64,000 bases of DNA from IMG/VR virus record IMGVR_UViG_3300025174_000006. One strand, 5' to 3'. The position numbers and the translations under genes were made by a program. Below the pieces are notes generated by a model. The model was not told where the DNA came from. It did not search any database and saw only the letters and a list, made by a program, of their open reading frames with translations. This DNA is from an uncultured virus (IMG/VR IMGVR_UViG_3300025174_000006). Lineage: Duplodnaviria; Heunggongvirae; Uroviricota; Caudoviricetes. Positions 971 through 62,129 of this stretch are shown here, one piece after another; position 1 is the first letter of the stretch; each line of letters begins with the position of its first letter.

Positions 971-1522
971 TTATTTGATTTGTAAAAAATTTGTGAGCAC
1001 TGGATGGTCAAGGTTTGGTTTTACCAATTTTAGATGTGCGTTAGATAAACGACCCATTCTCCATTTACCAGCACCAGGTGTATAGTCCTTAAGTTTTATA
1101 TTTGTTTCCGATATGTTTACACCATTACCAGAAGATGTATTTGGCGTGTATCCATTCAAATTTATAAGTGTTTCCAACGTTTGTGCCGCATTGGCGATTG
1201 GAATTATTGGTGTATATTCATCCAATCTTATATGTGTTTCTAATACGTCTTTTATAAACGACTGAGTTTTAGAATAACTAAATTTATATTTGTCCTCAAA
1301 AACCGACCAAATTAGATCGAATCTCACATAAAAATACCTGTTTTCTGTTTCCTGTTGAAATAATAATAAGTCATTTTTCACATAAAAAATATAATGTGGA
1401 TGTTTGTCTGAAATTTTTAATTCACACCCCTCTATAAAAGACAGGAAGAAATCCTCCATTTCGTGTTTGATGTGAAATTTCTCAAATAGGACTTTCCGAG
1501 TTATGGATAGGGTCGTTATCAT
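971..1522 (-). CDS. hypothetical protein with C-terminal 22-aa repeats
   Basis: 183 aa ORF; LETHIRLDEYTP / LETLINLNGYTP / SETNIKLKDYTP repeats; TACATTTG box upstream on the minus strand. Confidence 0.7.
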   Translation of the reverse strand: MITTLSITRKVLFEKFHIKHEMEDFFLSFIEGCELKISDKHPHYIFYVKNDLLLFQQETENRYFYVRFDLIWSVFEDKYKFSYSKTQSFIKDVLETHIRLDEYTPIIPIANAAQTLETLINLNGYTPNTSSGNGVNISETNIKLKDYTPGAGKWRMGRLSNAHLKLVKPNLDHPVLTNFLQIK

Positions 1523-7080: not shown

Positions 7081-7491
7081 ATGATAAAAAGTCTTGAATA
7101 TATTAAAATTCACATATTAAAAGAAGGAGAAAAGCCTGTTTTATTATCTGAGTTAGAAAACAAGATAGTTGCTTGGGCATTACATCTCCCTGAAAAAATA
7201 CAAATTTCTCATTGCAACTCTAAAGAAAATTCAAATCCAATAAAATTCATTGGAGGGAGAGAATACCGTTCCCTTGGAGATACCTGCAGAATGTTTTGTA
7301 AAATGAGACTACAAAATAGAATGTTTGATTACTTTTTCTGGGATGGAATTGTAAAAGTAATACATAATGATTATGATTACTTTAGTGAAGAATACTATGC
7401 TTTTAAAAATAGTTTTTATTATTATATTGTCACAGGAAGTTATAATCACCGGATGGTGTTAATAGAAAAATTCAATAGGGAGAAATGGTAG
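7081..7491 (+). CDS. GDT...RMVLxEK paralogue family member
   Basis: ATG at 7081 follows a TATATTTG box; LGDTCR and HRMVLIEK motifs. Confidence 0.7.
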   Translation: MIKSLEYIKIHILKEGEKPVLLSELENKIVAWALHLPEKIQISHCNSKENSNPIKFIGGREYRSLGDTCRMFCKMRLQNRMFDYFFWDGIVKVIHNDYDYFSEEYYAFKNSFYYYIVTGSYNHRMVLIEKFNREKW

Positions 7492-11811: not shown

Positions 11812-11817
11812 GTAAGA

Positions 11818-29676: not shown

Positions 29677-29986
29677 TTGTTACATTATAAAACGAATATG
29701 TTTTATAATTGTTTCACAAAACTAAAAAAATTATTCTACTATTCCAAGTTTATTTAAAAAATTATTTGCGTATTCTACTGCATTTTTAATAGATGCTTGA
29801 TGGTCATCCTTGAAATCATAAGCAACGGCATCAATAGCAGAATGTATTTCATTCATTAATTCACACATCGCTTTTAAATTCTCTAATCTTTTAGCATCCA
29901 CTTCTGATTTCCCAACTGGTCTAATTTCACCAATTAGCTTTTTTACTACATCGTAATTTGTCATCGTTTTATGTTTTGAGTTTTAG

Positions 29987-30060
29987 TGGAAGAAATTGGA
30001 TTTGAACCAATGGCACAAACGTTTTCGGCGTTTTGCTCTACCAGACTGAGCTACCCTTCC
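29987..30060 (-). tRNA. tRNA-Phe(GAA)-like gene with C33
   Basis: GGAAGGGTAGCTCAGTCTGGTAGAGC...AAACG-CCGAAAA-CGTTT...GGTTCAAATCC. Confidence 0.75.
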
Positions 30061-30696: not shown

Positions 30697-31239
30697 TTAT
30701 TTTAAATCATTTCTAAATACCAATACATTCGCTTGAAGTACAGAACTATACACTAAAGCCTTTTTAGCATATTTCTTTGGCTCTTCGATTAATTCAACAC
30801 AATCAACAATCCGAGTTCCTTCATGTTGACTAACTCTGTAAGTATCAATAGCGTATTCTTGCTTTACGTTTTTCAAAAACTCTTTAACTTTTTCGTCTAT
30901 TTCTTTTTCATTTAATTCACTTATTTTCAAGTAAGTTAAATTTTCAAAAAATTCTCCCTCTCTGCCTGCTATTAACCAATCAGCCATTTCTTGTAAGTGA
31001 GAAGGCAAAATATCATCTTCATTTTCAAAATCAAACAGGGAAGAATTTGAGCTATCATTAACCATTTTCTCAAAGGCATAAGCATAATCCTTTTTTAAAA
31101 ATCTTCCATTTAAGCGTTCCCTGTAACATTGTCCAACCAGATGCTCCCCATTATGCCAAATAATTGCTACACCGCCATCTTCTGCTAATAAAGTGCCATC
31201 GCTTCCACCTTCGTTTATATATAAGAATTTGTTTTCCAT
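30697..31239 (-). CDS. hypothetical protein, probably leaderless
   Basis: ATG directly after the promoter. Confidence 0.65.
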   Translation of the reverse strand: MENKFLYINEGGSDGTLLAEDGGVAIIWHNGEHLVGQCYRERLNGRFLKKDYAYAFEKMVNDSSNSSLFDFENEDDILPSHLQEMADWLIAGREGEFFENLTYLKISELNEKEIDEKVKEFLKNVKQEYAIDTYRVSQHEGTRIVDCVELIEEPKKYAKKALVYSSVLQANVLVFRNDLK

Positions 31240-31270
31240 AATGCACTATACAAGTTTTAATTTAACTGCG

Positions 31271-31585
31271 TTACAAAAAAGAACAATTGGATAGAAATTC
31301 TTTTTGCTTATCAGTAAGTTCTCCAACAAATTCATATTCAATTTCATCGCAAGTAAAAACCTTGCCTTCTATTACTGTTGTAGTTGTTTTTACAATAATA
31401 AGTTCAGCTCCAAGTAGCCGTTCAAATCCCATTCCCGAATCCAAAGAACCGTCAAGTCCTTTTGTTGCCTGTTTGATTATTTCATCTTTGGTTTTTCCAG
31501 TTAATTTTGTTGCTGGATATGCTCCAGTACCTCCACCCCAAAGATTTCCTAATACTGTTCCTGTCGATTTAAATGAAGTTTTCAT
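31271..31585 (-). CDS. hypothetical protein
   Basis: GNLWGGGTGAY...LDSGMGFE; stop codon lies inside the next promoter's TGTAAC. Confidence 0.65.
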   Translation of the reverse strand: MKTSFKSTGTVLGNLWGGGTGAYPATKLTGKTKDEIIKQATKGLDGSLDSGMGFERLLGAELIIVKTTTTVIEGKVFTCDEIEYEFVGELTDKQKEFLSNCSFL

Positions 31586-31651
31586 GGTGTTTGTTTTTGG
31601 TTTATAACGCACTATACAAAAAAGAATTTAATTGCGTTACATTAACTAATA

Positions 31652-31903
31652 TTATTCAAGTTCTTTACCGTTTTCGTCCATTTGAAAAAAGTCTATTGAA
31701 CTACCTTGTTTTTGAACAAGTTTAACAGCTTTTAACCCTTTTACTTTTTGATTTCTAATTTTAAAATCATGTACTCCCGAAAATGAGCCAGTGTTACATT
31801 CTTCTTCAATATCATCAATACTCATATTTCTATCAATCGGTTCTTCTGACAGAACTTCAACTTGATATACTGTTCTGTAAAGTGTTTTTGTTTTAGGCTT
31901 CAT
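31652..31903 (-). CDS. hypothetical protein, paralogue of 13185-13496
   Basis: YRTVYQVEVLSEEP. Confidence 0.65.
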   Translation of the reverse strand: MKPKTKTLYRTVYQVEVLSEEPIDRNMSIDDIEEECNTGSFSGVHDFKIRNQKVKGLKAVKLVQKQGSSIDFFQMDENGKELE

Positions 31904-32303
31904 GGCTGTTTTTATTTAAGTTATAATGTACTATACAAATTTTAATTTGATTGTGTTACAACTATTTTACATCAGAATAAACACATTCGTAAGAACACCC
32001 AAGTGAACTTCCACCTTCTAACATAAAACTAACTGTTAAATCTTTGTCATTATGCTTAAGAACAATAAAGTTTTCGCCGATTGTATTACCACCATATTCA
32101 ATAACTTCGTAATCATTATCATTAGCAAAATTACTAATTTCTTCATAGTTGCAAATTTGTCCTTTTTTCATAACGTTTGTTTTTGGTTGTAATGTACTAT
32201 ACGAATTTAAAACATATCGCGTTACAAAAACATAAAATAACAGGCGGATGTTTCTGGAGAAGCCCGTCGCCGGCGAGTTCTGGAGCTATTTTTGATTTTA
32301 AAA

Positions 32304-32385
32304 GATATACGTAAAATCCAACTCAATTTTTGTCACAAACTTAATTCTTTTCGTGACACAATTTCAGATTTATATTTCGTATATC
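32304..32385. repeat. double-dyad element copy 5
   Basis: same spacing. Confidence 0.9.
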
Positions 32386-32468
32386 CAAATCAAAGAAAAT
32401 TCTACTCCAGGAGCCTCCAGGGATTCTGAAGCACCGGAGGCTTCATATATTTATCTTCAGGATTTTAC

Positions 32469-32505
32469 AAAAAACAAAAGCCCCAACATTTCTGCCGGGG
32501 CTTTT
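32469..32505 (-). terminator. intrinsic terminator, representative of a family closing each gene block
   Basis: minus strand AAAAGCCCCGG-CAGAAATG-TTGGGGCTTTTGTTTT; related hairpins near 18280, 23958, 34993, 37295, 40441, 42305, 44142, 44893, 46343 and 48356. Confidence 0.8.
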
Positions 32506-34780
32506 CTTTAAATTTGAAACTTTACTATTCTTCACCGAATACATGACAAGCAAACGTATCAATGAACTCTTGATCGTTATAGTCGCTGAATTTATCTCCT
32601 ATGATGGTATCATCGCCTTCAAATTTGAACTGGTAATGAAATCCATTCCTCACAGTTCTTATATAGAAGTATTCTTCTCCCTTTTTGTGTTCTATGCCGT
32701 TATTTGCTTCTTTAATGGTGTAAATTCTTTCTTCACCATATTTGGTAATCTTTAAGGATTTTCCTGATAGGATAACTTTAAATCCGTTGTGGGTTATTTT
32801 GTTCATGGGAATAGGTTTTGGTTAGTTTAATTTAATACCTGATTTTTCAATTACTTCTTTTACGTTTCCGCAGGGGAACATCAAACCATTAATATTACCG
32901 TTTCTTAAAAACCTATCTAAATAATGAACTATCATTTCTAAATCGGCTCTACTGCAAGTAATACCAAGAACTTTCACTCCCCTGTATTCACTGTTGTCAA
33001 TTATGTTTTGAACTTTTGCTTTTAAAGCTGTTGCCTTGTTTTTCATGGTGTTTTGTTTTGGTTATAATGTACTATACCAAAAATTAAAACACGGTGTTAC
33101 AAATAAAGGGAGAATAAACGAAGAAAGTCCGAAAAGGGTTTTGTTATTCCCTGTCGGACTTTCTATATGTTGAGCCTTAGCTCTTGTGGCTTATAGCCTA
33201 TGTTTTATTTTTTTCTTTCCGGGGCAGTTAATTTAACAATAAAATGATTGCGATAAACCAAATTTGTTTGGTAAAACGTGCCGGGTAATTGTTTCAATAG
33301 TTTCATTATATAAGTAATTCGGGATTACGCTGCATAAATCCACGTCACGCTCTCTCCGTATTCCTTTACATATAACCATTTCATTTCTTTTTTCCGAGTT
33401 TCTCGCTACGATTCCAAGATTTTCTTCGTTGAATACTTCCGAAGCAACTATTGAAATTCCTAAAATATTCGCAGGTAATTCAATATTAACAATAGAAGTT
33501 TCAAAAATTAGAGGTTGTCCTCTTGCTGATTTTCCATGCTCTGTAATTCTCGGAGCAGTTACCGCCGACAATGTAAAAATAATTTGCGTCAGCATAAAAA
33601 TTAAGCCAATTCGTTTCATGTGTTTTAGTCCTCCTTTGTTTTAATGGTTAATACTACTTTACTACTTGCCTGAGCTTGCGCCTCAAGTTCCTTTGCGTGG
33701 AAATGATACATTTCACATTCGCGATTCATAATCTCTTTTTGCTCCTTCATGCTTTTTTGATTATTTTAAGTTTATTTATAATGTACTATACCAAAATTAA
33801 AAGACAGGTGTTACACTTTTAAAACAATTTATTGTACTTATTTTCGTAGGTAACAGGGAGAACTATCTCTCTTTCAAAAACATCAAACCACGTAGTATCA
33901 GATAATTCATGAAAATCGCCATCTCCAGTAATTTCGTCAATCACTTTTAAATCTTCTTCAAGCACTTCTGCGTTTTTAGTACCTTCGTGTATTATATCAA
34001 CAACGGATTTTACTTCGGCTTTAACTTCTTCAATACTATTATGAACAGTTAAGCCGTGTTCGCCTGATTTGTGGCTCATAAAAAGAATAAATACCTTTTT
34101 CATTTTGTTTGGTTTTAGTTATAAGCAAAATTTCTGTTTTTATTGATAGCGATGGTCATCAGAACAATTTTTTCAGTAAAGTGCATTTTATATTTTTGTT
34201 CTAATAATGTACCTTCTGAATCAATCACTTCCAATTCTTTTTTATCATTCAAATTTTCAGCAGTTGCATATCTTTCGTTTATTTTTTTAAACTCTTCTAA
34301 TAGTTTCGCTTCTTTTTCAACAATTTTAACTATTTTTGCTTCTAAATTTTGTCCGTTGAGTAGCATGATGTTTTAGATTTAGTTGGTTTATAATGTGATA
34401 CTTTGTTGTTTGCAATGTACTATACCAAAAGAAATTGTATTGCGTTACAACTTTATTGAACTATGTTACACAAATACAATATTATGTTTCTTTGCCCAAG
34501 ACTTAGCACGTTGTTCTGCCTTATCTATTTCAGAAGTAAAGCATTTAATAAATCCCCAAGCCTGTCCTACTGGAACAATTCTTGACCGTTGAACATTCCA
34601 CATTCCACCTCTCCAATGAATATAATCAGTAAGAAGGTAATACTTTTGAACTTTGATTTCTGTTTTCGTTTCCATAATGTACTATACAAAAAAGAATTTA
34701 ATCGCGTTACAGAAATATTAGAATAGTTGGCGGATGTTTCTGGAGGAGAAGCCCGTCCAGTAAGGATTTAAACAGATTTT

Positions 34781-34862
34781 GATATACGTAAAATCCAATT
34801 AAATTCCTGTCACGAAAAGAATTTAATTAGTGACAGGATTTCGGATTTATATTTCGTATATC
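34781..34862. repeat. double-dyad element copy 6
   Basis: same spacing. Confidence 0.9.
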
Positions 34863-34900
34863 TATTTTAAAATAAAATTCATCAGCTGGTCGCCGGCTCC

Positions 34901-34991
34901 TGGGATTTTTCGGGATTTTTCGGGATTTGTCAGGATTCGTCGGGATTTTTCGGGATTCGTCGGGATTTTACGGGATTCATCAGGATTTTAC
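34901..34991 (+). repeat. 10-bp tandem repeat, about 9 units
   Basis: CGGGATTTTT variants ending in CAGGATTTTAC. Confidence 0.9.
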
Positions 34992-35440
34992 CAAAAACAA
35001 AAAAGCCACACATTTCTGCATGGCTCTTTAAATAAAATTTGCTCAACTTATAACTACGCTTGATTCCCCTTAATTGTTGTGACTCGTTCGGGTATTGTAT
35101 CTGGTTTCAATGCGTTTATATTTATTTGTGTATCTGTTGCTTGGATAAATTCTTTTTTAAGGTCAGCCCAAAATCCAATTCTTTCAATTTCTAACATAAT
35201 ATGTTTTTTTAAATAAATATGATTGATTTTAACGTGTATAAATTAAACCATCATTTTTTGCCTTAAGACGTTCTTTCATGCTTCCATCTTTCTTTAGACA
35301 TTCTTCAACTGGAAAATCCCGATAATGTGTTGCGCCTTCTCCAAACTTAATTTCCAATGCCGTTGGCTTTCTATGGTACGTTAATTCTTTTATATTCCTT
35401 TCTGCAAAAATTTCTTTGTCGGTAGGAAGTGCTTTCTTTT

Positions 35441-35671
35441 TCATTTGCTTTGGTTTTTTAAATCGTCAGGAAGTCCAACACCATCAAAATTATAATTTCC
35501 TTTTTTACATTCTGCAAGTTCAGCATCACACGCTTCTCTGTATTTCGGATGCAGTTTTTCTTTATCTATACAAGAGATACATAAAATTTCTCTGTTGAAC
35601 ATAGACATTTTTGTAATGTTATTGGTGGGTTCATTACACCTATCGCAGATACCTTTTACTTTCTCGTCCAT
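35441..35671 (-). CDS. small Zn-finger-like phage protein
   Basis: CDRC...SMFN..ILCISC...GNYNFDGVG. Confidence 0.65.
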   Translation of the reverse strand: MDEKVKGICDRCNEPTNNITKMSMFNREILCISCIDKEKLHPKYREACDAELAECKKGNYNFDGVGLPDDLKNQSK

Positions 35672-37126
35672 GACATTTTATTTTGGTTATAATGTACTAT
35701 ACAAAAAATTAAATTGTTGCGTTACAACTTCGTTGGGTTTCACCACAGATTTTTACCCTACCTGTTTTACTTTACCACACTCTTTGCAAATCCAATGATG
35801 TTTATCGCACACTTCTGATACACCATCATCAACGTATATAGCCTTAGTATCACACTCACATTTACACCAAAAATCATCGCTTTCTTCATTTATCTCTTCG
35901 ATTTGTTCTTTAGCATCGCGTTCCTTTTGTAAATTTTTAATAACTTTCCCATCACGAACTTCAAGCGGCCATCCGTATTTAATAAAATCTTTCCCTTTAA
36001 TGTTTGTTTCATTGGTTCTACGAACTCCTTTTTTGTGAGTTATGTTATCTCTTGTCCGAGAATGTGAGCCGGAAGTTTCGCCAAAGTGTTTTTTGTCTTT
36101 ATGCTTTTTGCGGTCTTTAGCAGTGTACTCTTCTCCCTTATATTTTTTTTTTGTCTTGCTCATTTGATTTCAGTTTTACCATTAATGTTAATTACAATGT
36201 ACTATACGAACTTTAATTCTTTTGCGTTACAACTTCGTTGAACTTCGTTACAAGTTATACCATTTCTTCCACATTTGCACCTAATTCTGCTAATACATTT
36301 GAAACGCTAATCATTCTTACTGTGTCTGTTTCAGAAATACACTCGGTGTCAATTTTGTGATAAGCAACTTCAAGAAGGGTTCCGATTTCATCTACATGGT
36401 CTTCTTCTACATACAAAGACGCTGATTCCTTCATTTGAATTCTTTCAGCTTCATTGCTCGTAAAGTAGTCAATAAAATTCTCAATTATCATTAACTTAAA
36501 TTCATCTGTTTTTTTCATGGCTTTATTGTTTGGTTGATTAATTTTTACTTCTCCAGATTTTTATTGCATCTTTTATAGAGTAAAACAAAAATTTTTTCCC
36601 TTGAATGTTAACAACTCCATTACTGTATTTATAAGCATAAACGCCATTTCTAACTTTTGTTTTACTGATTGGGGTTGCGAATAAGTCAGGTTGCATTTGC
36701 TTTTAAGTTTTGGTTTGTAATGTACTATACAAAATTAAATAATATTACGTTACACTTTGCCACAATTCTTTAATTCAGTTTCAGTAGCTATTTTGAATAA
36801 CTCCCAAAACTGTTTGCTTTCCAATAAACACAACTGAATAACACCAAATAACTCCAACATGGTTTTCCGATTATCTCTTTCATTCCATTCTAAAAGATAA
36901 TAATAACATCGTGCAGGAACTTCTATATCATCTAAGCATTTTTTCATAATGTACTGCCGTTAGGCGTATGTTATTTATAACGTACTATACGAAAAAGAAT
37001 TGAGCCATGTTACACGTTACGGGTGCGTTTAGGATTTTACAACAATTAATTGCATCTAACGGATGGCGGATATACGCAGTTTTGCAGCGTTTTGCAGCGA
37101 AAATTTAAGTGATTTTAAAACTAAAA

Positions 37127-37208
37127 GATATACGTAAAATCCAATTCAATTTGTGTCACGAATTTAATTCTTTTCGTGACATAATCTCATTTTTATATTT
37201 CGTATATC
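37127..37208. repeat. double-dyad element copy 7
   Basis: same spacing. Confidence 0.9.
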
Positions 37209-38080
37209 AAAATCAAAGTAAAATTCCACTGCGGAGCCTCCAGGAAATCTAAAGTTCCGGTGCTTCAGAACTTTGGGCATCAGGATTTTACCACAAAACA
37301 AAAACCCCAACATTTCTGCCGGGGCTTTTTTATTAATCTTTTATCTAATATATAAGTAATCATTATTATAAATTACCTCTTGGGGGCATCTCTTGTCCGA
37401 TTCATCTCGTCTGAGTTTAAGGGTTAATACTAATTAACGCGAATAATGTGTTTAGCTACCAATTCAGCTACAATTACGCTGTTTATTTTTTGTATTGCTT
37501 GGTCTATTGTAAGTCCTAAAAGCAACCATTGTTTTAAGTCCATGTGATTTAATATTAAAGTTAACGTTTGAGTTTATAAATTGCGATTTCCACAAGTACA
37601 ACAATATTTTGCTATCATTAACCTGTTAGTTTTGCAATGATTACAGTAGTGGTTGATTTTTGCTACAACGTATTTTACTTCTGCATTGACAACTTTTGAT
37701 TTGGATTTTATTTCTGTCGTTTCCATGACTTTAAGTTTTGGTTTGTAATGTACTGCCTTCGGCGGCGTTCTTAACGCACTATACCAAAAGAAATTGTATT
37801 GTGTTACAAAAACGGAGTTAATCCCAATCTTTTGCAAGTTCAATGTTTTCTATTAATGTTGAATTACTTTTTAACCATTGGATAGGTTCAGGACAGTTTG
37901 GAGTTTGATCGATTACTGCAACACCATAGTATTTATTGGATTTCCAAATTTCTTTTGCTTGGTCAACTGCAGTCTTAAATGGAAGTCCAGTTGCAACTGG
38001 AACTGCTCCATGCACATCGCTTTTAAATGTGGCTATTTCAAATTTTGTTGTGGCGTTTTTCATGGTTGGTTGTTTTTTGT

Positions 38081-38419
38081 TTAAAATTTATAGTCAGCAA
38101 TCTTTTCAATTTTTTCATCCAATAGATTAAAAATTTCATCTATATAAATTTCATTAAAAATCTGCTGTATTGTTCCTTGCGTAGAAGTTAAATAAATATC
38201 AAAGGCATCCATAAAATTAAGATAAATATAAACATGACCTTTGTGGTGATGCCCATTAACTTTGAAACGCAAAGCTGATTCAGTCATTTTAGTAAAGCCA
38301 TGAGCTCCCCAAGACCAAAATTTTGCTTTATGGGCATAAAGAAAATCTACAATCTCTTTATGATCCATTATTCTCCCCTCCCTTAATCCTTCAATATTTA
38401 TTTTTTCTCCGATTTTCAT
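38081..38419 (-). CDS. phage hypothetical protein
   Basis: SWGAH...LRFKVNGHHHKGHVYI; own promoter. Confidence 0.7.
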   Translation of the reverse strand: MKIGEKINIEGLREGRIMDHKEIVDFLYAHKAKFWSWGAHGFTKMTESALRFKVNGHHHKGHVYIYLNFMDAFDIYLTSTQGTIQQIFNEIYIDEIFNLLDEKIEKIADYKF

Positions 38420-38469
38420 GGTTGGTTATTTTGGTTATAATGGACTATACGAATTTTAATTCTTTCGTG

Positions 38470-38874
38470 TTACAAATCTCCTTTAATTCCAAGTTTATCT
38501 TTCCGCTCCTTTGCCATTTCTTCCAGTTTTAATTGAAAACTACTTTTTTTCTTGGGAAGCATCCAACCGTCTGTTTGTACTGGTGCAGAAGTAGCAGAAT
38601 TTTCCTTTAAAAGACGCCTATTATCTTTGTATCTGCCACTTTTAGGGAGAATTATATTTAAAATTCCTAATGCAATAATAGATGCAAGCATAGTAAGTAA
38701 AATCACAATTCCACTTGTATAAACAATCATTACTATAACAAGTATGATTTTGATTAATCCAAGCCATTCAGTTTGTGGTATCGCGTTTATAATTAGGTCA
38801 TACAACAGAGTATCTAAATATATGACAAACCAAGCGCAAAGACCTACGATAATAATTTTTAATAATGTGTTCAT
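38470..38874 (-). CDS. membrane protein
   Basis: 2-3 hydrophobic segments. Confidence 0.65.
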   Translation of the reverse strand: MNTLLKIIIVGLCAWFVIYLDTLLYDLIINAIPQTEWLGLIKIILVIVMIVYTSGIVILLTMLASIIALGILNIILPKSGRYKDNRRLLKENSATSAPVQTDGWMLPKKKSSFQLKLEEMAKERKDKLGIKGDL

Positions 38875-42196: not shown

Positions 42197-42365
42197 TAAA
42201 TTAAAAGAAAAATCCTGTTCTGGAGCCTCCTGGCCGGATTTCCTTCAGCTTCAGTTTCTTGCGGTGAATGGGTTAGTTTAACTCCGCAAAAGTGCGTCGA
42301 ACAGAAAACAAAAAACCCCCGCATTTCTGCAAAGGGCTTTCTGAACCAACCAATAAATTAAAAAG

Positions 42366-42438
42366 TGGAAAGGGTAGGAATTGAACCCACGACACGAGTG
42401 CTTTCGACACCCTGCTCTACCAACTGAGCTACCTCACC
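42366..42438 (-). tRNA. tRNA-Phe(GAA)-like gene with a non-canonical anticodon loop
   Basis: GGTGAGGTAGCTCAGTTGGTAGAGCA-GGGTG-TCGAAAG-CACTC...GGTTCAATTCC. Confidence 0.72.
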
Positions 42439-49205: not shown

Positions 49206-49486
49206 TACAAGTCAAAAAAAACGTGATCTGGGACTCTGTGGACCCCTGAAAAAACTCCTGAGCCGACATCTAAAATCCTTTGAAACGCTTGCTATCATTG
49301 AGAATTTTCTTCCAGTCAGGACCTGGATGCCTTCCGTATAAATTTTGACTCAAGAACTCAAAACAAGTGGTAAAATCCTCCATTTGTATCCCGAAAATAA
49401 TTTATTTTTATTTGTTGTATAACTCACTGAAAGTGTAACGCAGTAGTTTATCATTTCGTATAGTACATTAACCAATAACAAGTACC

Positions 49487-50255: not shown

Positions 50256-50319
50256 CTGTATTTTGTAACACCGGAATTTTATATTTTGTATAGTATATTA
50301 GAAACAAAAACTTAAAGCC

Positions 50320-50705: not shown

Positions 50706-51259
50706 TATAAGGTGAGAAAAATCGGAAAAGTGGCTCCGGATTTTTCATACCCGGTGGCGTTAGACTTAGGATTTTACATCCAAAGAAATTCATCAATATC
50801 TCCACCCTTAATCAACGTCTTATTTAAGTAGGCAATCCACAAGTTCCTTAATTAAGGTCTTAATCGGTATATAACGCCTTAATTGACTATTTAAGGGCTT
50901 ATTTAGCCCGTATCGATATTTAGCTCTAAAAACCCCTATTCTGGGCGTGGAAAGGGAGGCTCAAAAATTATGGAGCCAACTTTTAAAAATGGATTTATCA
51001 AACCATCCGAATTAGCACCGGAGTAAAATCCTACAATCCTGCTTCCATATATATAATACCTGTTGCTCGATTATATGCAAGAACATATAATAATGCCTAA
51101 AATACACCATTTTTAACTTTTTATATGCATTGGCATATACACATTAAATTTTCGAACTGGCAATTTCCAAAAAAATAACCAATTTCGCCCTTTCAAAAAA
51201 TTTCCAGCCAAAAAATTTTTTCAAAATATTAAGACCTATTTATATCAAAACTTATTTCC

Positions 51260-51793
51260 ATGAAAACAAAGATGACCATCACCGAATTAAAACAATATGT
51301 AAATTCAGAAGCAAAAAGGATTATAAAGGAGCAAAAGCTTAACAAAGAAAAATCCAGGATAATTAGTGAAATATCCAAATTAGATGAGACAGAAGAAACC
51401 TTTAAGTCCTATAAATTTAAAGTAAAACACGATAAAGGATTTACAACAATAAGCACGACTGGTTCAAGTGAAGAAGTTGCAAAGAAAAAAATAGCAAAAT
51501 CAGAAGGTTGTCCGGAAAGTGCAATTACTTTAATGAATAAAAAATTGAATGAAATGAGCACATCTTCTGAATTAGATGGAACTTTCAATAAAAGTGCAGA
51601 CTCAGTAAGAAGAAAAGATAAAACTTGGTCAGATGGAAATTTAACTTATGATTTTAATGAAAGCAATGAATTTGACAGATTAAAATGTAGGAACTGTGGT
51701 GGAACAACTTTTGAAGTATTACACACTGACGATTGGCAAACATCAGCAAAATGTAATAATTGCGGTATGTATTACATAGTTCACAGTGGATAA
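51260..51793 (+). CDS. hypothetical protein with a C-terminal Zn ribbon, possible late or virion-associated protein
   Basis: KMTITELKQYV..E...IIKE N-terminus; TATTTAT upstream; CRNC...CNNC. Confidence 0.6.
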   Translation: MKTKMTITELKQYVNSEAKRIIKEQKLNKEKSRIISEISKLDETEETFKSYKFKVKHDKGFTTISTTGSSEEVAKKKIAKSEGCPESAITLMNKKLNEMSTSSELDGTFNKSADSVRRKDKTWSDGNLTYDFNESNEFDRLKCRNCGGTTFEVLHTDDWQTSAKCNNCGMYYIVHSG

Positions 51794-51802: not shown

Positions 51803-52642
51803 ATGAATTCCCTTTCAGAAAATATTATCCGGACCCAAATCCGTAAAATCCTGTTAAAAGAAGAATTTTTAAAAGAAGTTTTTTTAAAAGAGCTTACCGG
51901 TAAATTCAAGGACGAAGTAGAAATCATCTATCGTGATAAAAACATTGTGTGTTTGATTCCAAAAAGTCAAATGACTTCTTACATATATGGAAACAAAGCT
52001 AATTGGTGTCAAAAAGAGAAGAATGGATTTGAGGGGTGGTCAAAAGCCGGTTTACTAATTAGGTTTTTATTTAAAGAAGGAGGAAGGAAAATCAGGTTTA
52101 CGTATTTTACGGGTCAAAATGAATCGAGAGGATTTTACTGGGCAAATGAATCTGGCCATCATATTTTATCAGAAGAAGGAAAAGGTAAAAATCCATTTGA
52201 GGCATCTTCCAAGAATAAAACTCTATGGCCAAACGAAATAGACACATTAAATTTAATAAATCAAATACCAGAAGAATGTAAACAAAAAGTTTTAGAGTTT
52301 ATAGAAAAGCATAAAGAAGCGTATGAATATTGTTATAAAGATACTGAGTACAAGCCTGTAGGTTTAAAAGCAAAAATGGATGAGTTTGAAAGTATATATA
52401 ATTATTACATAGATGCGTTTCATGCCATACATGAGCATAATCAAAACATTATTATTTCAATACACTTTGATAAATCGACAAAAGAATTTACTATAAATCA
52501 TTCAAACGAATATGGAATAAAAATTAATTACCTTGTACAAAACGAACGTTTTAAAGACTCTAAATCTTTTGAGAAAAGGATTAAAGAATTGATAGTCATG
52601 TATCGAAAACAATTCAACATTTTTTCTTCTCCGGAAAAATAA
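51803..52642 (+). CDS. hypothetical phage protein
   Basis: IIRTQIRKILLKE N-terminus; YGNKANWC motif. Confidence 0.65.
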   Translation: MNSLSENIIRTQIRKILLKEEFLKEVFLKELTGKFKDEVEIIYRDKNIVCLIPKSQMTSYIYGNKANWCQKEKNGFEGWSKAGLLIRFLFKEGGRKIRFTYFTGQNESRGFYWANESGHHILSEEGKGKNPFEASSKNKTLWPNEIDTLNLINQIPEECKQKVLEFIEKHKEAYEYCYKDTEYKPVGLKAKMDEFESIYNYYIDAFHAIHEHNQNIIISIHFDKSTKEFTINHSNEYGIKINYLVQNERFKDSKSFEKRIKELIVMYRKQFNIFSSPEK

Positions 52643-52813
52643 ACATCATCATCATTTTATTACAACATTTTTCGTATCTTCGCCTCATGAAACAAATACA
52701 AATTTCATGACCCATACAAATCTTATAACTGAAAATACAGATTTTATGACCGGAGATATAATTTCTGTTTTTCGTATGGAAGAAAATTTCAAAGAAAAAG
52801 GAGAAAACTACTA

Positions 52814-53083
52814 ATGGAAAGCTTTTCAATAGGAGATACGGTTAGTATGAGAAGGAATGGGAATTCTATAGGAGCTGGTTATTATATAAAACCAATTTGT
52901 ATTGATGGATTTATTACAAATAATAGAGTGTTTCATAGAAATCAAGTTATTTACCAGATATTAGTAAATAAAGGCGAAACTCATCACATTGATACAAGAT
53001 ACAAATATGAAGCAGAATTATATACTTGCCGGTTAGTTTTGACTGAAAAGATTAAATTTAAGATTAAAGAAGAAATGAGATGA
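52814..53083 (+). CDS. GDT...TCRxVLxEK family
   Basis: FSIGDTV...YTCRLVLTEK. Confidence 0.75.
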   Translation: MESFSIGDTVSMRRNGNSIGAGYYIKPICIDGFITNNRVFHRNQVIYQILVNKGETHHIDTRYKYEAELYTCRLVLTEKIKFKIKEEMR

Positions 53084-53343
53084 AAGAGATTCTTGAAAAT
53101 ACATTCACGGAAAACATTGGGAACCAGGAATATCATTTTTTTGATACAGTACGTTGCGTTTCCATAACGGGTCATGTATTCGACGGATTATTATTTGAAG
53201 TTGGAAACTCTTGTTTTATTAAAGTACTTTACAATGAGTGGTTATATGAATTTAGATACAAAACTGTTAACCCATTAAGAAAAGTCCTAATAGAAAAGGT
53301 GGAAAAGATGATTTATTTAAATTTTGAATTCTCAAATAAATGA
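53080..53343 (+). CDS. GDT...VLxEK family, diverged
   Basis: FFDTV...LRKVLIEK; ATGA overlap. Confidence 0.65.
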   Translation: MKEILENTFTENIGNQEYHFFDTVRCVSITGHVFDGLLFEVGNSCFIKVLYNEWLYEFRYKTVNPLRKVLIEKVEKMIYLNFEFSNK

Positions 53344-53690
53344 TAGATTGGATAAATATAAATTGTGATAAACTAATCGAAAAACCAAGTTCAGAAGAAC
53401 TCAAGCGTTATATTAGAAGATTTCGATTTATTAACTTTATGCGAGGTGATACTGTTCATATTTATTCTTTAGATTCCAATCGCGAAAGTCTTGTTAAGGG
53501 TTTTTATCGAAATAGAGAAGATTATGGTGTTGCGGATTATTCTCCAAATTCTATTTTTGAGATAATTAAAAACAATGGTCAAATAATAGTTGGTACGATT
53601 GGTATTGACAATATAAACAGGAAAATAAATACCTGCAGGCTCGTATTAACTGAAAAAATAATTGAGTCAGATAAAACGATTTGGTATTAA
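53340..53690 (+). CDS. GDT...TCRxVLxEK family
   Basis: FMRGDTV...NTCRLVLTEK. Confidence 0.75.
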   Translation: MIDWININCDKLIEKPSSEELKRYIRRFRFINFMRGDTVHIYSLDSNRESLVKGFYRNREDYGVADYSPNSIFEIIKNNGQIIVGTIGIDNINRKINTCRLVLTEKIIESDKTIWY

Positions 53691-53731
53691 ATTCCTCAAA
53701 AAACAATTAAACTCAAATAAAATATAAAACA

Positions 53732-54181
53732 ATGTTAGAATTAGAAAAAATAACAGAAGCAATTATTAACATAGAAGATGGTGTTATTAATATTACAATT
53801 GGAAATATAAACAAGACTCATGATGACTTTCATGACAGAGTTCGTATTAATATAGTAGAAAACGAGATATTAATTTCGGGACATAAACTTGAATGTAAAA
53901 AGATTTATGGTCACGTTACTGAATTAAATAAAGAATTTGAAATATATAGAAAAAAACTTATTGGATTTGAAGAAGATATAATAGAAAGTAAATTTTTATC
54001 TTGGTATGAATGTTTAACTATATCAGAATTTAAAAAAATCTTCTCTTGGAAAAAATTACGTTTTAATAAATTCAAAATGATTAAAAACGGTTATTACACA
54101 ACAAAATACATCTATAAACCAGAATTTTGGACACAGAAAGAATATAGGGCAAACAATTGGGTTATTACAGAATATAAATAA
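53732..54181 (+). CDS. hypothetical protein
   Basis: 149 aa; interrupts the paralogue array. Confidence 0.6.
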   Translation: MLELEKITEAIINIEDGVINITIGNINKTHDDFHDRVRINIVENEILISGHKLECKKIYGHVTELNKEFEIYRKKLIGFEEDIIESKFLSWYECLTISEFKKIFSWKKLRFNKFKMIKNGYYTTKYIYKPEFWTQKEYRANNWVITEYK

Positions 54182-54186
54182 TACTA

Positions 54187-54447
54187 ATGACTGAAAAAAC
54201 AATATTTCACAAAGGAGACACAATAGAAATGCGTTCTGAGGGATATAGAGTCAGGTACAAATCAATTATCTCTTCTGAGCTCGATTTTAAATTCGTTAGC
54301 GCATTTTGCACTAGGATGGTTTTGACTGAAAACATGTTTATTTCAATTAAGCTATATTTGTACACAAAAGATAAGATAATATGGAAGATTTTTTACGCGA
54401 ACAGAAAGAAGAATATAAACAAGGTGATACGGTTAGTTACTATTTGA
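54187..54447 (+). CDS. GDT...RMVLxE family
   Basis: FHKGDTI...CTRMVLTEN. Confidence 0.65.
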   Translation: MTEKTIFHKGDTIEMRSEGYRVRYKSIISSELDFKFVSAFCTRMVLTENMFISIKLYLYTKDKIIWKIFYANRKKNINKVIRLVTI

Positions 54448-54644
54448 AAGACGTTAATAGACATGTAAAACTATTTTTTAAAAGCGTAGAAACAAAGGTT
54501 AAATACGACATCATAGAGACTCTTTCGATGAAGAAAAAGAGATTTTCATTTCCAATAAGAAATTACTCTTTAGTTTTGTGCACCTGCAGGACTGTTTTAA
54601 CTGAAAAAACTATAAACTGGGATATTGAAATTGAATCAAATTAA
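54381..54644 (+). CDS. GDT...TCRxVLxEK family
   Basis: YKQGDTV...CTCRTVLTEK. Confidence 0.75.
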   Translation: MEDFLREQKEEYKQGDTVSYYLKDVNRHVKLFFKSVETKVKYDIIETLSMKKKRFSFPIRNYSLVLCTCRTVLTEKTINWDIEIESN

Positions 54645-54646
54645 GT

Positions 54647-54922
54647 ATGGAAGAATTTTTAAAAGGTGATACGATTGAATTGATAAATCCTTACTGGCGC
54701 TCAAAGCGTTTTATAGTTTCTACTGAAGTATATCACACTTTGACAAAAGACATGAAAACAATTAAAGAAACGAAATATACTATTGTATCACTAAATCTCT
54801 ATAACCAAATAAGAACTAATTACGTTTCAAACCTTTATAACACTTTAAAAATCTTAACTTGCCGGATGGTATTAACTGAAAAAAGAAATAAAAAATTAAA
54901 TTTATACTTTGACTTTGAATGA
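54647..54922 (+). CDS. GDT...TCRMVLxEK family
   Basis: FLKGDTI...LTCRMVLTEK. Confidence 0.75.
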   Translation: MEEFLKGDTIELINPYWRSKRFIVSTEVYHTLTKDMKTIKETKYTIVSLNLYNQIRTNYVSNLYNTLKILTCRMVLTEKRNKKLNLYFDFE

Positions 54923-55191
54923 AAGATTTTAAATTAGGTGATACAGTTGATATAATTAATTTTGGTACAAATAAAACTGAAGAACGAAGTTTGAAAACTT
55001 TTTTATGTGGATGCGACAAATATAAGAGTATTAATTCAAAAGGTACTGTGCATGAAAATTATTATTTTTACGCATTTGATAATCAAAATGTATTGCGTGA
55101 GTATTATGCTGGAGATTCTTATCCATATATGAGGATTTATACCTGTAGGATGGTTCTATTTGAAAAACAAAATAAATATTTAATTTTATAA
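54919..55191 (+). CDS. GDT...TCRMVLxEK family
   Basis: FKLGDTV...YTCRMVLFEK. Confidence 0.75.
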   Translation: MKDFKLGDTVDIINFGTNKTEERSLKTFLCGCDKYKSINSKGTVHENYYFYAFDNQNVLREYYAGDSYPYMRIYTCRMVLFEKQNKYLIL

Positions 55192-55445
55192 TGGAAGAGA
55201 TAGAGTTTGAATTAGGAGATACGATTGCTTTTATTTCCCAGCATGGATATAACAAAAAAGGGTTTATAATATTTAAAAATTCATGGTTTTATAACAAAGA
55301 TTGTTTCACCTATAGATTAATTGAATATAGCGGCAGAAGATATCAAGTAGATAGAGGTTGTGGATTTGAAAGCACAATGCGTACTTGCCGGATGGTTTTG
55401 TTTGAAAAGACGCATAAATGTTTGAGGAAACGCATAATTATATAA
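55191..55445 (+). CDS. GDT...TCRMVLxEK family
   Basis: FELGDTI...RTCRMVLFEK. Confidence 0.75.
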   Translation: MEEIEFELGDTIAFISQHGYNKKGFIIFKNSWFYNKDCFTYRLIEYSGRRYQVDRGCGFESTMRTCRMVLFEKTHKCLRKRIII

Positions 55446-55455
55446 AGAAATTACA

Positions 55456-55692
55456 ATGGAAGAAATTTTATTTTTAGAAGGAGATACTATTAATTTAAAA
55501 AATAGTGATGTAAAAGGGTTTTTGTTTAAGATTCTTGATTGGATTCTTATTAATTCATATGATGATGAAACACCTTACAAAACAATAATAATTGAAAATT
55601 GTAAAGAAGAAAGAGGATTTTACATTGTGAAAAAAAAAGATTTAAGTTTATATACCTGCAGGATGGTTTTGATTGAGAAAAATAAACTGTGA
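55456..55692 (+). CDS. GDT...TCRMVLxEK family
   Basis: FLEGDTI...YTCRMVLIEK. Confidence 0.75.
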   Translation: MEEILFLEGDTINLKNSDVKGFLFKILDWILINSYDDETPYKTIIIENCKEERGFYIVKKKDLSLYTCRMVLIEKNKL

Positions 55693-55949
55693 TTAAATGA
55701 AAACAAAAGGCAAGTGATAATTTACCACTTGCCTTCCGGTTTAATAAAAAATAAATTTATTGGTCATTTTCTGAATTAGAATCTTTGCTCCATTGCAATA
55801 AAAATCCTATTCCGAAGAACAATACGGTAATCCAACTAAGTACAGTACAAAAAAATGATGCATTATCATCAGTATTTTTCCTGGTTATTACATAAGCTAT
55901 TATAGCTCCTATCAAATATATTATAAAAATCGTCATTATATTTATTGTT

Positions 55950-56693
55950 TTAAATTTTTTCTTTTTCTTCTCCGTTGTCAGATAGTAAAGTATCACTAAA
56001 ATTAGAATCCATTGTTGCAAATGATGCACTTCTCATACGTTTTACTGAGCTACTCATATTCATATAAGCCACATTAACTCCTCTTAAAGTATTAGAATAA
56101 GACATTGTATTTCCTGCAGAAACACCCATTCCTCCACCGGCTTGCATTGTATCTATATTGGCTCCAATGAATAAAAACGCCCATTTGTCATCATCTTTTC
56201 TTTTTTGAATTAAATCAAAAACAGATTTTTGGGTATATTCCTTACTGGAATTTTCCTGACCATCGGTCATGATAAGGAAAATCACTTTATCAGATTTATC
56301 TTTAGAATCTTTCCATTTAGTATAAACAGAGTCAATAGTTGCGCCAATGGCATCAAACATGGCGGTCATTCCTCTTGGAACAAATGTATCTTTATTTAAT
56401 TCCGGAACATCTTTAATGTCGAGTCTTTCATGAATGATTTCATATGTCTTACCATCAACAGCTCCATAACTGGAACCGCCATCAAATAAGCATAATGTTA
56501 ATTTTGCTTTACCGGTAGATTTTTTTTGATCTGCAAGGAAAGAGTTAAATCCTTCGATTGTTTTTTCTGTTAGTCCGGAAGTTCTAATAGAAGTTGAGCG
56601 GTCAAGAACACAAATAATGTCTGTAGTTTCGTCTGTTGCTTTTGTGGTTTTCTTCTTACTTGTTTTTTCTTTTTTTGCTTTAGTTTTTGCCAT
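55950..56693 (-). CDS. vWA domain protein
   Basis: MIDAS-like DRSTS, RGMTAMFDAIG and IMTDGQENSS motifs. Confidence 0.85.
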   Translation of the reverse strand: MAKTKAKKEKTSKKKTTKATDETTDIICVLDRSTSIRTSGLTEKTIEGFNSFLADQKKSTGKAKLTLCLFDGGSSYGAVDGKTYEIIHERLDIKDVPELNKDTFVPRGMTAMFDAIGATIDSVYTKWKDSKDKSDKVIFLIMTDGQENSSKEYTQKSVFDLIQKRKDDDKWAFLFIGANIDTMQAGGGMGVSAGNTMSYSNTLRGVNVAYMNMSSSVKRMRSASFATMDSNFSDTLLSDNGEEKEKI

Positions 56694-61826: not shown

Positions 61827-62129
61827 ATGAATGAATTTTCAAAATACGATACTGTTATGGCTATAAAAGGAGATAGACTTAGATTTGAAAAAGGATTATA
61901 TCTAACTTCTTTTAAACGGCATGTTGAATTTGAGAGTGAATATAAAACAATTATTTTGTATAATACTGAAAGAAAAAGAATAATAAAATTTTATGGAAAG
62001 AGACATATAATCAGAATTTTTTCTACACGAATGGTTTTAACTGAAAAAAGCATAGTTAAAAAAGTAACAATAGCTATTGAAAATAACGTAGGATTTAAAA
62101 ATAGAATAAATAGTAATACTTTTTTTTAA
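61827..62129 (+). CDS. GDT...RMVLxEK family, dispersed member
   Basis: FSKYDTV...STRMVLTEK. Confidence 0.7.
   Translation: MNEFSKYDTVMAIKGDRLRFEKGLYLTSFKRHVEFESEYKTIILYNTERKRIIKFYGKRHIIRIFSTRMVLTEKSIVKKVTIAIENNVGFKNRINSNTFF

What the first reader, a model, noticed from the sequence alone, without database searches (positions are those of the whole stretch)
52707..55692. Tandem family of small proteins with constant ends and hypervariable middles
Seen: eight ORFs here, plus dispersed copies at 7081 and 61827 and a 35-aa stub at 52707-52814 that has only the FxxGD end. They share N-terminal F/YxxGDT(V/I) and C-terminal TCR(M/L)VLxEK, while the intervening ~30-60 aa are unalignable by eye and vary in length. 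The C-terminal motif is also conserved in DNA (ACYTGYMGGATGGTTTTRACTGAAAA-like). Inference: a diversified SH3/KOW-like adaptor or anti-defence repertoire whose conserved Cys-containing motif docks on a common partner, or whose conserved ends act as recombination anchors.
Basis: partly seen in the sequence, partly recalled or inferred. Interest (0 to 1): 0.7.

Follow-up and report, generated by a model that had tools for sequence, protein, structure and literature searches.

The report
Megaphage-wide peptide tag on small proteins
The tandem genes encode small barrel-shaped proteins whose constant tail is one copy of a seven-residue label that this giant-phage lineage puts at the ends of about one in seven of its proteins, probably an address label read by one common partner such as the head-assembly machinery.

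Summary
Window 52814-55692 holds nine tandem ORFs, not eight, and there are two dispersed copies. All have an F..GDT[VI] start and a TCR[ML]VL.EK end. The middles are only 14% identical.

The middles are not structureless. They fold as a five-stranded SH3/KOW/Tudor-like barrel (pLDDT 80.8). About 65 further relatives exist in metagenomes.

The constant C-terminal end is not specific to this family. R-x-V-L-x-E-K occurs 54 times in this 212-kb phage record, against about 0.1 expected. It lies within 25 residues of the N- or C-terminus of many unrelated small proteins.

- The motif is conserved as peptide, not as DNA.
- AlphaFold places it outside the fold in both families modelled.
- It recurs in related records, including 95 of 818 genes in a complete 519-kb relative.
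- It is absent from more distant relatives (0 of 301 genes in one).

My best reading, at about 0.4, is a capsid-targeting or processing tag like the T4 capsid targeting sequence (CTS). The VL-x-E|K core fits a gp21-type protease site, the complete relative encodes that protease, and the array sits behind the promoter-like box found before head and lysis genes. The main rival is a docking motif for another partner. The recombination-anchor idea is not supported.

The parts
51236..51243 (+). Promoter-like box CTATTTAT, 24 nt before the ATG at 51260. It heads the + strand unit that contains the array.
   Evidence: The same box lies a median 23-24 nt before the ATG of 19 genes in this record and 26 in G007, including TerL, the scaffold-like ORF and the endolysin. 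The protease has CTATTTA. No other P1/P2/P3 box lies on the + strand between 51260 and 55692.
51260..51793 (+). 177-aa ORF, first gene of the unit. It has a Cys-x2-Cys ... Cys-x2-Cys C-terminus.
   Evidence: Only sub-threshold zinc-ribbon hits.
51803..52642 (+). 279-aa ORF of unknown function with an N-terminal IRTQIRKILLKEE motif. It is a syntenic partner of the array.
   Evidence: It is 50.5% identical to G007 510411-511220(-), which also has the CTATTTAT box and has SH3-family copies downstream.
52707..52814 (+). 35-aa stub with F..GDII only; no tag.
52814..53083 (+). Family member, 89 aa; tag TCRLVLTEK (R codon at 53030).
53080..53343 (+). Degenerate member, 87 aa (FFDTV ... LRKVLIEK; R codon at 53278).
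   Evidence: (42 bits).
53340..53690 (+). Member, 116 aa, with a 30-aa N-terminal extension; tag R codon at 53637.
53732..54181 (+). Unrelated 149-aa ORF inside the array; no tag.
54187..54447 (+). Decayed member, 86 aa. Only 29 residues lie between GDTI and the tag. The tag reads TRMVLTEN. A 37-aa tail overlaps the next gene.
54381..54644 (+). Member, 87 aa; tag TCRTVLTEK (R codon at 54588).
54647..54922 (+). Member, 91 aa; this is the one modelled. Strands are at residues 9-13, 18-32, 38-49, 55-61 and 68-71. The tag (residues 73-79) is coil.
54919..55191 (+). Member, 90 aa; tag R codon at 55147.
55191..55445 (+). Member, 84 aa; tag R codon at 55389.
55456..55692 (+). Member, 78 aa; tag R codon at 55660; only 3 residues follow the tag.
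55704..55738 (.). 16-bp stem-loop where the + strand unit meets convergent - strand genes.
   Evidence: It was scored as a terminator for the - strand.
61827..62129 (+). Dispersed member, 100 aa (YDTV ... STRMVLTEK; 26-aa tail).
7081..7491 (+). Distant dispersed member, 136 aa (LGDTC ... HRMVLIEK).
   Evidence: Outside homologues are P0006-P0008.
971..1522 (-). Member of an unrelated family (here called Fam A) with the same tag at the N-terminus (ITRKVLFEK, residues 7-15).

Best explanation
The tandem ORFs encode about 80-115-aa SH3/KOW/Tudor-like beta-barrel proteins. Their constant C-terminal end is one instance of a lineage-specific short linear peptide tag, (T)-R-x-V-L-[ITFV]-E-K-(F/Y/S). 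This megaphage clade places the tag within about 25 residues of the N- or C-terminus of 12-19% of its genes, on many unrelated folds.

Shown:
- The tag is massively over-represented.
- It is conserved as peptide only.
- It is predicted to be exposed, outside the folded domain.
- It appears as an add-on to domains that exist without it elsewhere.

Inferred at about 0.7: one common reader recognises the tag after translation.

On this reading the tag works like the T4 capsid targeting sequence (CTS). It brings diverse cargo into the prohead core. Where residues follow it, the gp21-type prohead protease can cut after the Glu (V-L-x-E|K). The SH3 array and other tagged proteins would then be packaged and delivered with the DNA as a host-takeover or anti-defence repertoire.
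For: Tag statistics:
- There are 54 six-frame copies in this record. In ORF calls, 51 are observed against 0.09 expected. Sixty score above the best reversed-sequence score with a motif HMM.
- Of 125 copies in six records, 42 are N-terminal, 52 C-terminal and 30 internal.

Peptide-level selection: Arg uses all 6 codons, Val 4 and Leu 6. Synonymous identity is at or below the genome expectation.

Exposure: tag residues have pLDDT about 50-60 just after the last barrel strand, and below 50 before the first helix of Fam A.

Unrelated carriers:
- hhalign aligns only 17 tag columns between the two families.
- With tags masked, 208 tagged proteins form 143 BLAST clusters.

Add-on nature:
- The Fam A homologue in tag-free G006 starts just after the tag position.
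- The tag is appended after a LAGLIDADG endonuclease domain.
- The tag forms the last 7 residues of a Tad3-domain protein.

Lineage specificity (genes with the tag / genes called): G007 95/818, G000 56/399, G001 31/163, G006 0/301. DNA-pattern counts against reversed-pattern controls are given.

Head link:
- G007 has Peptidase_S77 (2.9e-32), then a scaffold-like ORF, then the MCP (Gp23, 3.5e-76), in T4 order.
- T4 gp21 cuts Alt at ITE-6 and LTE-619, that is, at both N- and C-terminal sites. T4 CTS propeptides are 10-20 residues (PMC5694885, passages read).
- In T-even phages the CTS is the only conserved part of otherwise diverse internal proteins (PMC3012670, passages read).
- Cleavage after the tag's Glu would remove 10-30 residues from the N-terminal class.
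- The array lies behind a CTATTTAT box shared with TerL, the scaffold-like ORF and the endolysin. This synteny is kept in G007.
Against: - The true MCP and the part of the scaffold-like ORF read carry no tag in G007, although they should be the main protease substrates.
- Some tags are the very last residues (0-1 residues after the K) or directly follow the Met. There the tag cannot be a useful endoprotease site, only a binding signal.
- Most tagged genes are not behind the late-like box. The count is 13 of 56 tagged against 75 of 343 untagged in G000, and 6 of 95 in G007.
- A different terminal motif, (K/R)(L/M)xxLAG(I/V/L) followed by (I/L)xE, sits near residue 10 of large structural-size ORFs and at the scaffold-like C-terminus. 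It looks at least as CTS-like as this tag.
- Sixty to 95 cargo species would far exceed any known phage.
- Tagged proteins show no charge bias.
- No reader has been identified, and there is no proteomic or expression data.
Confidence: 0.4

Rival explanations
1. The tag is a docking motif for a common partner unrelated to the capsid. Candidates are a phage or host hub: a chaperone, a protease adaptor or degron reader, the replication or transcription machinery, or a localisation receptor. The exposed strand-prone peptide would dock by beta-augmentation, bringing many effector domains to one place or timing their turnover.
For: All the general tag evidence applies. Tags at the extreme ends argue for binding rather than cleavage. 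Tagged genes lie behind several promoter classes and in long arrays of small genes typical of early regions. Position 4 is restricted to I/T/F/V, and +1 is aromatic or S/T, which are strand-prone residues.
Against: No candidate partner was found. The comparison with tag-free G006 is uninformative because only 32 of 399 genes have hits. This reading does not explain the L-x-E core, the late-type box before the SH3 array, or tags joined to MCP, portal and TerL pieces.
Confidence: 0.3
2. The tag is a self-association strand. Tagged proteins pair through their tags, or with the conserved GDT[VI] first strand of the barrels, to form homo- or hetero-oligomers.
For: In some families the tag lies 5-6 residues before a GD[TV]V strand (genome 25956-26944; G001 77733-78011). 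This is a circular permutation of the arrangement in the finding, and it would put tag and first strand side by side.
Against: AF2 does not pack the tag on the barrel. Many carriers have no barrel. No oligomer prediction was run.
Confidence: 0.1
3. The tag is a scar of in-frame insertions or gene-fragment fusions made by a mobile element. On this reading it has no function of its own.
For: Tag-containing segments of about 20-30 residues are inserted into, or join, fragments of MCP, portal and TerL paralogues. The three-ORF tagged cassette next to the portal in G003 and G007 is absent at the same place in G006. The record is rich in homing endonucleases.
Against: A scar would decay. Here seven residues are held across more than 200 copies while their codons drift. 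There is no DNA repeat and no Rfam intron.
Confidence: 0.07
4. One reading: the conserved ends are DNA recombination anchors for shuffling cassettes.
For: The genes are in tandem and both gene ends are conserved.
Against: Synonymous pair identity in tag codons is at or below the genome expectation, in the family and genome-wide. Exact DNA identity between copies is short.
Confidence: 0.03
5. The tag and the GDT[VI] start are remnants of an intein/Hint splicing domain.
For: The lineage carries what look by eye like ordinary inteins in the TerL and portal of G006. Tag modules sit near the same portal region. The resemblance to intein block patterns is recalled, not tested.
Against: No Hint or intein Pfam hit appeared in 98 + 39 tagged proteins. 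There is no Cys/Ser at the first position, no TxxH and no terminal HN. The residue after the tag is F or Y in 45 of 125 copies. The fold is an SH3-like barrel.
Confidence: 0.02

Closest known systems
T4 capsid targeting sequence (CTS) of internal proteins IPI-III and Alt
   Same: A short conserved terminal peptide is the only shared part of otherwise diverse, fast-evolving small proteins. It ends in a hydrophobic-x-Glu protease site. The lineage has the gp21-type protease. Processing can be N- or C-terminal, as for Alt at ITE-6 and LTE-619 (PMC3012670 and PMC5694885, passages read).
   Different: The sequences are not similar. Here the tag is as often C-terminal or internal as N-terminal, and it can be the very last residues. 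It marks 56-95 genes per genome rather than a handful. Packaging and cleavage are untested.
Long propeptides of phiKZ/SPN3US-type giant-phage head proteins
   Same: Many head and ejection proteins of a giant phage share a protease motif and targeting propeptides (PMC5694885, passages read).
   Different: Those propeptides are N-terminal, often more than 100 residues, and the motif is a minimal x-x-E. Here a fixed 7-9-residue tag sits on small proteins.
Encapsulin cargo-loading peptides
   Same: A short terminal peptide, at either the N- or C-terminus, addresses unrelated cargo to the inside of an HK97-fold shell.
   Different: The consensus is different. That system is cellular and has few cargo types.
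SH3-like small beta-barrels (KOW, Tudor, bL19, EF-P domain I)
   Same: The predicted five-strand barrel aligns with them at Z 6-8.7 and rmsd 2-4 A over 52-75 residues. The F..GD.V start resembles the KOW signature (recalled).
   Different: No sequence-profile match was found. Z values in this range can reflect only a common arrangement.
Junction motifs of polymorphic toxins, such as VENN in CdiA (recalled)
   Same: A short conserved peptide marks the border between constant and variable parts in tandem cassettes.
   Different: Those junctions are also conserved in DNA and serve recombination. Here the DNA is not conserved, and the tag is shared by unrelated families.

Membership tests
T4-type CTS-bearing internal or ejection proteins | Short terminal leader that is the only conserved part of otherwise unrelated proteins | tested here: met
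T4-type CTS-bearing internal or ejection proteins | Leader ends in a hydrophobic-x-Glu site, giving a 10-20-residue N-terminal propeptide | tested here: inconclusive
   V-L-x-E is invariant by definition of the motif. N-terminal offsets of 4-24 residues would give 10-30-residue leaders. However, 52 of 125 tags are C-terminal and some are the last residues of the protein.
T4-type CTS-bearing internal or ejection proteins | gp21-family prohead protease in the genome | tested here: met
   G007 has Peptidase_S77 at 2.9e-32, next to the scaffold-like ORF and the MCP. None was found in the incomplete G000 record.
T4-type CTS-bearing internal or ejection proteins | Protein present in the virion and cut at the site | not testable with these tools
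   This needs virion mass spectrometry.
SH3-like barrel (KOW/Tudor) | Five-strand small barrel | tested here: met
   AF2 pLDDT 80.8. The top VIA-align rows are nearly all SH3-like barrels, Z 5.7-8.7.
SH3-like barrel (KOW/Tudor) | Sequence-profile membership in a KOW, Tudor or SH3 family | tested here: not met
   No Pfam hit at E <= 1 to any such family for the members. The only SH3_4 hit, at E 0.27, is on the neighbouring 279-aa ORF.
Intein/Hint | Cys/Ser at position 1, TxxH, terminal HN followed by Cys/Ser/Thr; Hint profile match | tested here: not met
   no profile hit; residue after the tag; no such conserved residues.
Recombination-anchor cassettes | Nucleotide conservation beyond what the peptide requires | tested here: not met
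Tad3 anti-Thoeris (one tagged protein of G007, L131:8859-9479:-) | Pfam PF25185 above its cut-off | tested here: met
   95.5 bits against a cut-off of 27, residues 3-126 of 207. Activity is untested.

The most novel reading that the evidence does not exclude
The tag is a universal address label that loads an arsenal of about 60-100 different proteins into the capsid of a half-megabase phage for co-injection. Part of that arsenal would be decoys. The evidence for decoys is that small tagged ORFs are built from fragments of exactly the three proteins that bacterial Avs-type sensors recognise: large terminase, portal and major capsid protein (PMC13581612, passages read). They sit alongside a tagged Tad3 anti-Thoeris protein. 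The diversified SH3/Tudor-like array would be another arm of this pre-loaded counter-defence.
Probability: 0.08. Interest if true: 0.95.

Novelty: new variant of a known kind. Interest (0 to 1): 0.78.

Why it matters
One seven-residue peptide marks 12-19% of the genes of a clade of very large, uncultured phages. That gives a handle on what is otherwise hundreds of 'hypothetical' small proteins.

- The peptide defines a functional class that can be listed from sequence alone.
- It predicts a single reader that can be fished out with a peptide.
- If the capsid-targeting reading holds, the known scale of protein co-injection by phages would rise by an order of magnitude. It would also supply a portable packaging tag.

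The tagged fragments of terminase, portal and capsid protein raise a testable idea about how phages might blunt pattern-recognition immunity. I found no description of the motif: a full-text search for six motif strings returned 0 papers.

Tried and rejected
- Pfam and PHROGs on the family and its neighbours gave nothing above threshold.
- blastn of the region against GenBank phages found no match.
- The search for related loci with alignment A1 returned an error because no stretch was conserved enough. I scanned with a degenerate DNA pattern instead.
- I considered group I/II introns as the cause of the 'split' MCP. Rfam found only tRNAs in 107 kb.
- I considered an intein or split-intein origin and rejected it (see rival explanations).
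G006 is too distant for this: only 32 of 399 genes have hits.
- Charge and pI of tagged proteins do not differ from other small proteins.
- Rare-codon enrichment in the tag is present in G000 but not in G007, so it is not general.
- The ESM Atlas look-alike search returned only unnamed viral clusters below 0.85.
- Complex prediction with the G007 protease and the SH3 member gave no verdict (score 0.00). This is not evidence either way.
- The look-up of sequencing runs listed no RNA holder.
- The search of earlier findings by place and by sequence returned nothing. The call by words failed on a word limit.
- P0028, a 1157-aa protein with 14 Ig-like repeats that matched the profile, is a false friend.
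- For the family-wide alignment I used 27 outside proteins and left out P0028, P0027, P0020 and P0036. Only 32 of the 78 hits were fetched.
Full report
**Context.** The window is bases 43060-107059 of a single 212,632-bp virus record (G000) with 29% GC. PHROG and Pfam scans show a phage. It carries ribonucleotide reductase, thymidylate synthase, helicases, many HNH/GIY-YIG/LAGLIDADG endonucleases, DNA methyltransferases, a sigma factor, an endolysin and tRNAs. The record lacks a portal, a full capsid gene and a prohead protease.

G000 is collinear with G007, a complete 518,809-bp record with terminal repeats. 139 of 399 ORFs have BLASTP hits there, running in order. One of its proteins also occurs on contigs of up to 503 kb. 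G000 is therefore probably a fragment of a roughly half-megabase phage, despite a CheckV estimate of 81%. The nearest cultured capsid protein is from the T4-like Flavobacterium phage 'immuto', at 35% identity.

**The observation.** ORFs with F..GDT[VI] near the start and TCR[ML]VL.EK near the end lie at 52814, 53340, 54381, 54647, 54919, 55191 and 55456. There is a degenerate copy at 53080 and a shortened one at 54187. Dispersed copies lie at 61827 and 7081, and a 35-aa stub at 52707. An unrelated 149-aa ORF interrupts the array.

Among the 10 window members aligned, mean pairwise identity is 0.56 in the N motif, 0.72 in the C motif and 0.14 in the middle. Both motifs are far above chance. A profile built from the family finds no further member in this record.

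**What the family is.** Eight of the 10 window members have 51-66 residues between the two motifs. A profile search of 1.84 billion representative proteins found 78 proteins at E <= 0.001, seven of them at E <= 1e-10. I fetched 32 of the 78. I then aligned 27 outside proteins with the 16 from alignment A2. All 43 carry the C motif, and 41 carry the GD motif. The consensus shows additional conserved positions: KGF, W and G..Y.

AlphaFold2 on a 16-sequence alignment gives a five-strand barrel with mean pLDDT 80.8 and 85-92 in the core. Foldseek finds only weak matches, the best at E 0.03. A full-library structural alignment puts SH3-like barrels at the top, with Z 6-8.7: bL19, EF-P domain I, NusG KOW, UvrD/PcrA Tudor, NdhS and CarD. 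The middles are therefore very diverged but are not featureless linkers.

**The C motif is not the family's own.** Weak profile hits clustered upstream of the window. Reading that region showed the same peptide in quite different proteins. A six-frame scan of the record finds R.VL.EK 54 times. A motif HMM finds 60 copies above the best reversed-sequence score. Composition predicts about 0.1.

The consensus is (L/I)-T-R-(K/R/...)-V-L-(I/T/F/V)-E-K-(F/Y/S). BLAST clustering separates at least seven families in this record. The tag is N-terminal in some and C-terminal in others. With tags masked, 208 tagged proteins from seven records form 143 clusters. Profile-profile comparison of the SH3 family with Fam A aligns only 17 tag columns, and the predicted folds differ.

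**Peptide or DNA?** In the 54 copies Arg uses all six codons, Val all four and Leu all six. Pairwise synonymous identity is at or below what genome codon usage predicts. This holds genome-wide and within the tandem family. An excess of rare codons is seen in G000 but not in G007. The constraint is therefore on the peptide, and the recombination-anchor idea loses its basis.

**Where the tag sits.** 125 copies (allowing L, I or M at the fourth position) were found in six records. Of these, 42 lie 4-24 residues from the first Met, 52 leave a tail of 1-24 residues, 30 are internal and one is close to both ends. In G007 some tags are the very last residues of the protein or directly follow the Met.

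AlphaFold places the tag just outside the fold in both families modelled. In the SH3 member it is coil at pLDDT about 50-60, right after the last strand. In Fam A it has pLDDT below 50, before the first helix.

The tag is also an add-on to other domains:
- The Fam A homologue in tag-free G006 begins just after the tag position.
- A LAGLIDADG endonuclease carries the tag in a tail beyond the matched domain.
- A G007 protein with a Tad3 anti-Thoeris domain ends with it.

**Distribution.** A degenerate DNA scan of IMG/VR, followed by whole-record scans, shows many copies in G001 (29), G002 (21), G003 (3), G004 (5), G005 (5), G007 (82) and G009 (8). Reversed-pattern controls give 0-1.

In my own ATG-only ORF calls (genes with the tag / genes called), the tag is on G000 56/399, G001 31/163, G007 95/818 and G006 0/301. 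G006 has the same GC content and a portal 63% identical to that of tag-bearing G003.

Two published huge-phage records and the Flavobacterium phage show 1, 1 and 0 hits, against 4, 1 and 1 in controls. The tag is therefore a derived character of one sub-lineage.

**Link to head assembly.** G007 has an intact TerL, a T4-type portal, a gp21-family protease (2.9e-32), an acidic scaffold-like ORF and a 519-aa Gp23-type capsid protein (3.5e-76), in T4 order. T4 gp21 removes 10-20-residue CTS propeptides, and it cuts Alt at ITE-6 and LTE-619. In T-even phages the CTS is the only conserved part of diverse, partly anti-restriction internal proteins (PMC5694885 and PMC3012670, passages read). The general (L/I)-x-E rule is recalled knowledge, and those two sites are consistent with it. 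The invariant V-L-x-E of the tag fits that rule.

A k-mer count of upstream regions found a CTATTTAT box a median 23-24 nt before the ATG of TerL, the scaffold-like ORF, the endolysin and several large ORFs. The protease has CTATTTA (the endolysin was identified). The same box lies 24 nt before the ATG at window 51260, and no other box lies on the + strand before the array ends at 55692. In G007 the homologue of the 279-aa gene also has the box, and SH3-family copies lie downstream on the same strand. That the box is a late promoter is an inference.

**Against the head reading.**
- The true capsid protein and the part of the scaffold-like ORF read have no tag.
- Tags at the extreme C-terminus cannot be useful cleavage sites.
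- Tagged genes are not enriched behind the late-like box: 13/56 against 75/343 in G000, and 6/95 in G007.
- Another terminal motif, (K/R)(L/M)xxLAG(I/V/L) followed by (I/L)xE, marks large ORFs and the scaffold-like C-terminus, and it also occurs in G006. It may be the lineage's ordinary head-targeting leader.

I therefore give the general claim, an exposed tag read by one common partner, about 0.7. I give the specific capsid-targeting and processing mechanism about 0.4.

**An unexplained layer.** Several tagged ORFs are mosaics of pieces of hallmark proteins.
- Capsid-protein segments (Gp23 profile positions 2-40, 129-197 and 309-348) are interrupted or capped by 20-30-residue tag segments.
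- Portal residues of about 282-313 follow an SH3 barrel plus tag in G003, G004 and P0036.
- A TerL N-domain paralogue ends in the tag in both G000 and G007.
- The three-ORF tagged cassette beside the portal in G003 and G007 is absent at that place in G006.

Terminase, portal and capsid protein are the proteins sensed by Avs-family receptors (PMC13581612, passages read). A decoy role is a bold reading that the data do not exclude.

**Verdict.** The more important finding is that the 'constant end' is a lineage-wide peptide tag. I found no description of it. Its function is unproven, and the tests listed under next steps would settle it.

Noticed in passing
G000 genome coordinates 25956-38800 (- strand; upstream of the window; loci L002): About 35 consecutive small ORFs from at least six families all carry the same tag. 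Three of them have the tag 6 residues before a GD[VI]V strand, which is a circular permutation of the finding's arrangement.
   Followed up: partly
window 971-1522 (-) and paralogues in L002; G006 191376-191978: Fam A proteins end in 2-5 repeats of LETH[VI]KLEGYTP with variable spacers, predicted to be disordered. The tag-free homologue has LEEHFKKG.LTP repeats. This looks like a second short linear motif.
   Followed up: no
G000 genome 123213, 141542, 141825, 147357, 156109, 201915 (N-termini) and 193689 (C-terminus); G007 357450 (scaffold-like C-terminus): The motif (K/R)(L/M)xxLAG(I/V/L), usually followed by (I/L)xE, lies near residue 10 of large ORFs and at the C-terminus of the scaffold-like protein. 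It is also present in tag-free G006. It may be the lineage's ordinary head-targeting or propeptide signal.
   Followed up: partly
window 51803-52642 (N-terminus); G000 genome 171890 and 172395; G001, G005 and G007 homologues: N-terminal M..IRK.IRK.L.E leaders, which contain a relaxed copy of the tag core (R.[IV]L.E).
   Followed up: no
window 49434-49470, 50264-50300 (+) and 49042 (-): A composite promoter-like element, TTGTAAC(A/G)C, about 17 nt of spacer, then T(C/T)GTATAGTAC. It is 25-fold enriched upstream of genes and distinct from the CTATTTAT box.
   Followed up: partly
G000 genome 170524-171836 (-); G005 9946-11451; G007 432124-432968 (L115): A syntenic trio or quartet of small ORFs built from capsid-protein N-terminal pieces with two tags. 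In G000 the tail after the second tag resembles a portal segment (ENDYFIPVR).
   Followed up: partly
L054 (G006) 7176-9917 and 9977-13120: The TerL (913 aa) and portal (1047 aa) each contain an insertion of about 350-420 residues. By eye these look like canonical inteins: they begin with Cys and end with Asn before Thr or Ser. This was not tested with an intein profile.
   Followed up: no
G000 genome 149330-150364; window 29986-30060 and 42365-42438: A single-chain phenylalanyl-tRNA synthetase (tRNA-synt_2d plus FDX-ACB) occurs together with two tRNA-Phe genes. APS kinase and sulfotransferase genes are nearby.
   Followed up: no
G000 genome 112086-113642 and 116690-119026: Two paralogous 518- and 578-aa ORFs lie beside a serine-recombinase-type transposase (phrog_6620). 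This looks like an IS607-like TnpA/TnpB pair.
   Followed up: no
window 55950-56693 (-): A 247-aa ORF with a von Willebrand A-like domain (phrog_7371, 7e-52) converges on the array.
   Followed up: no
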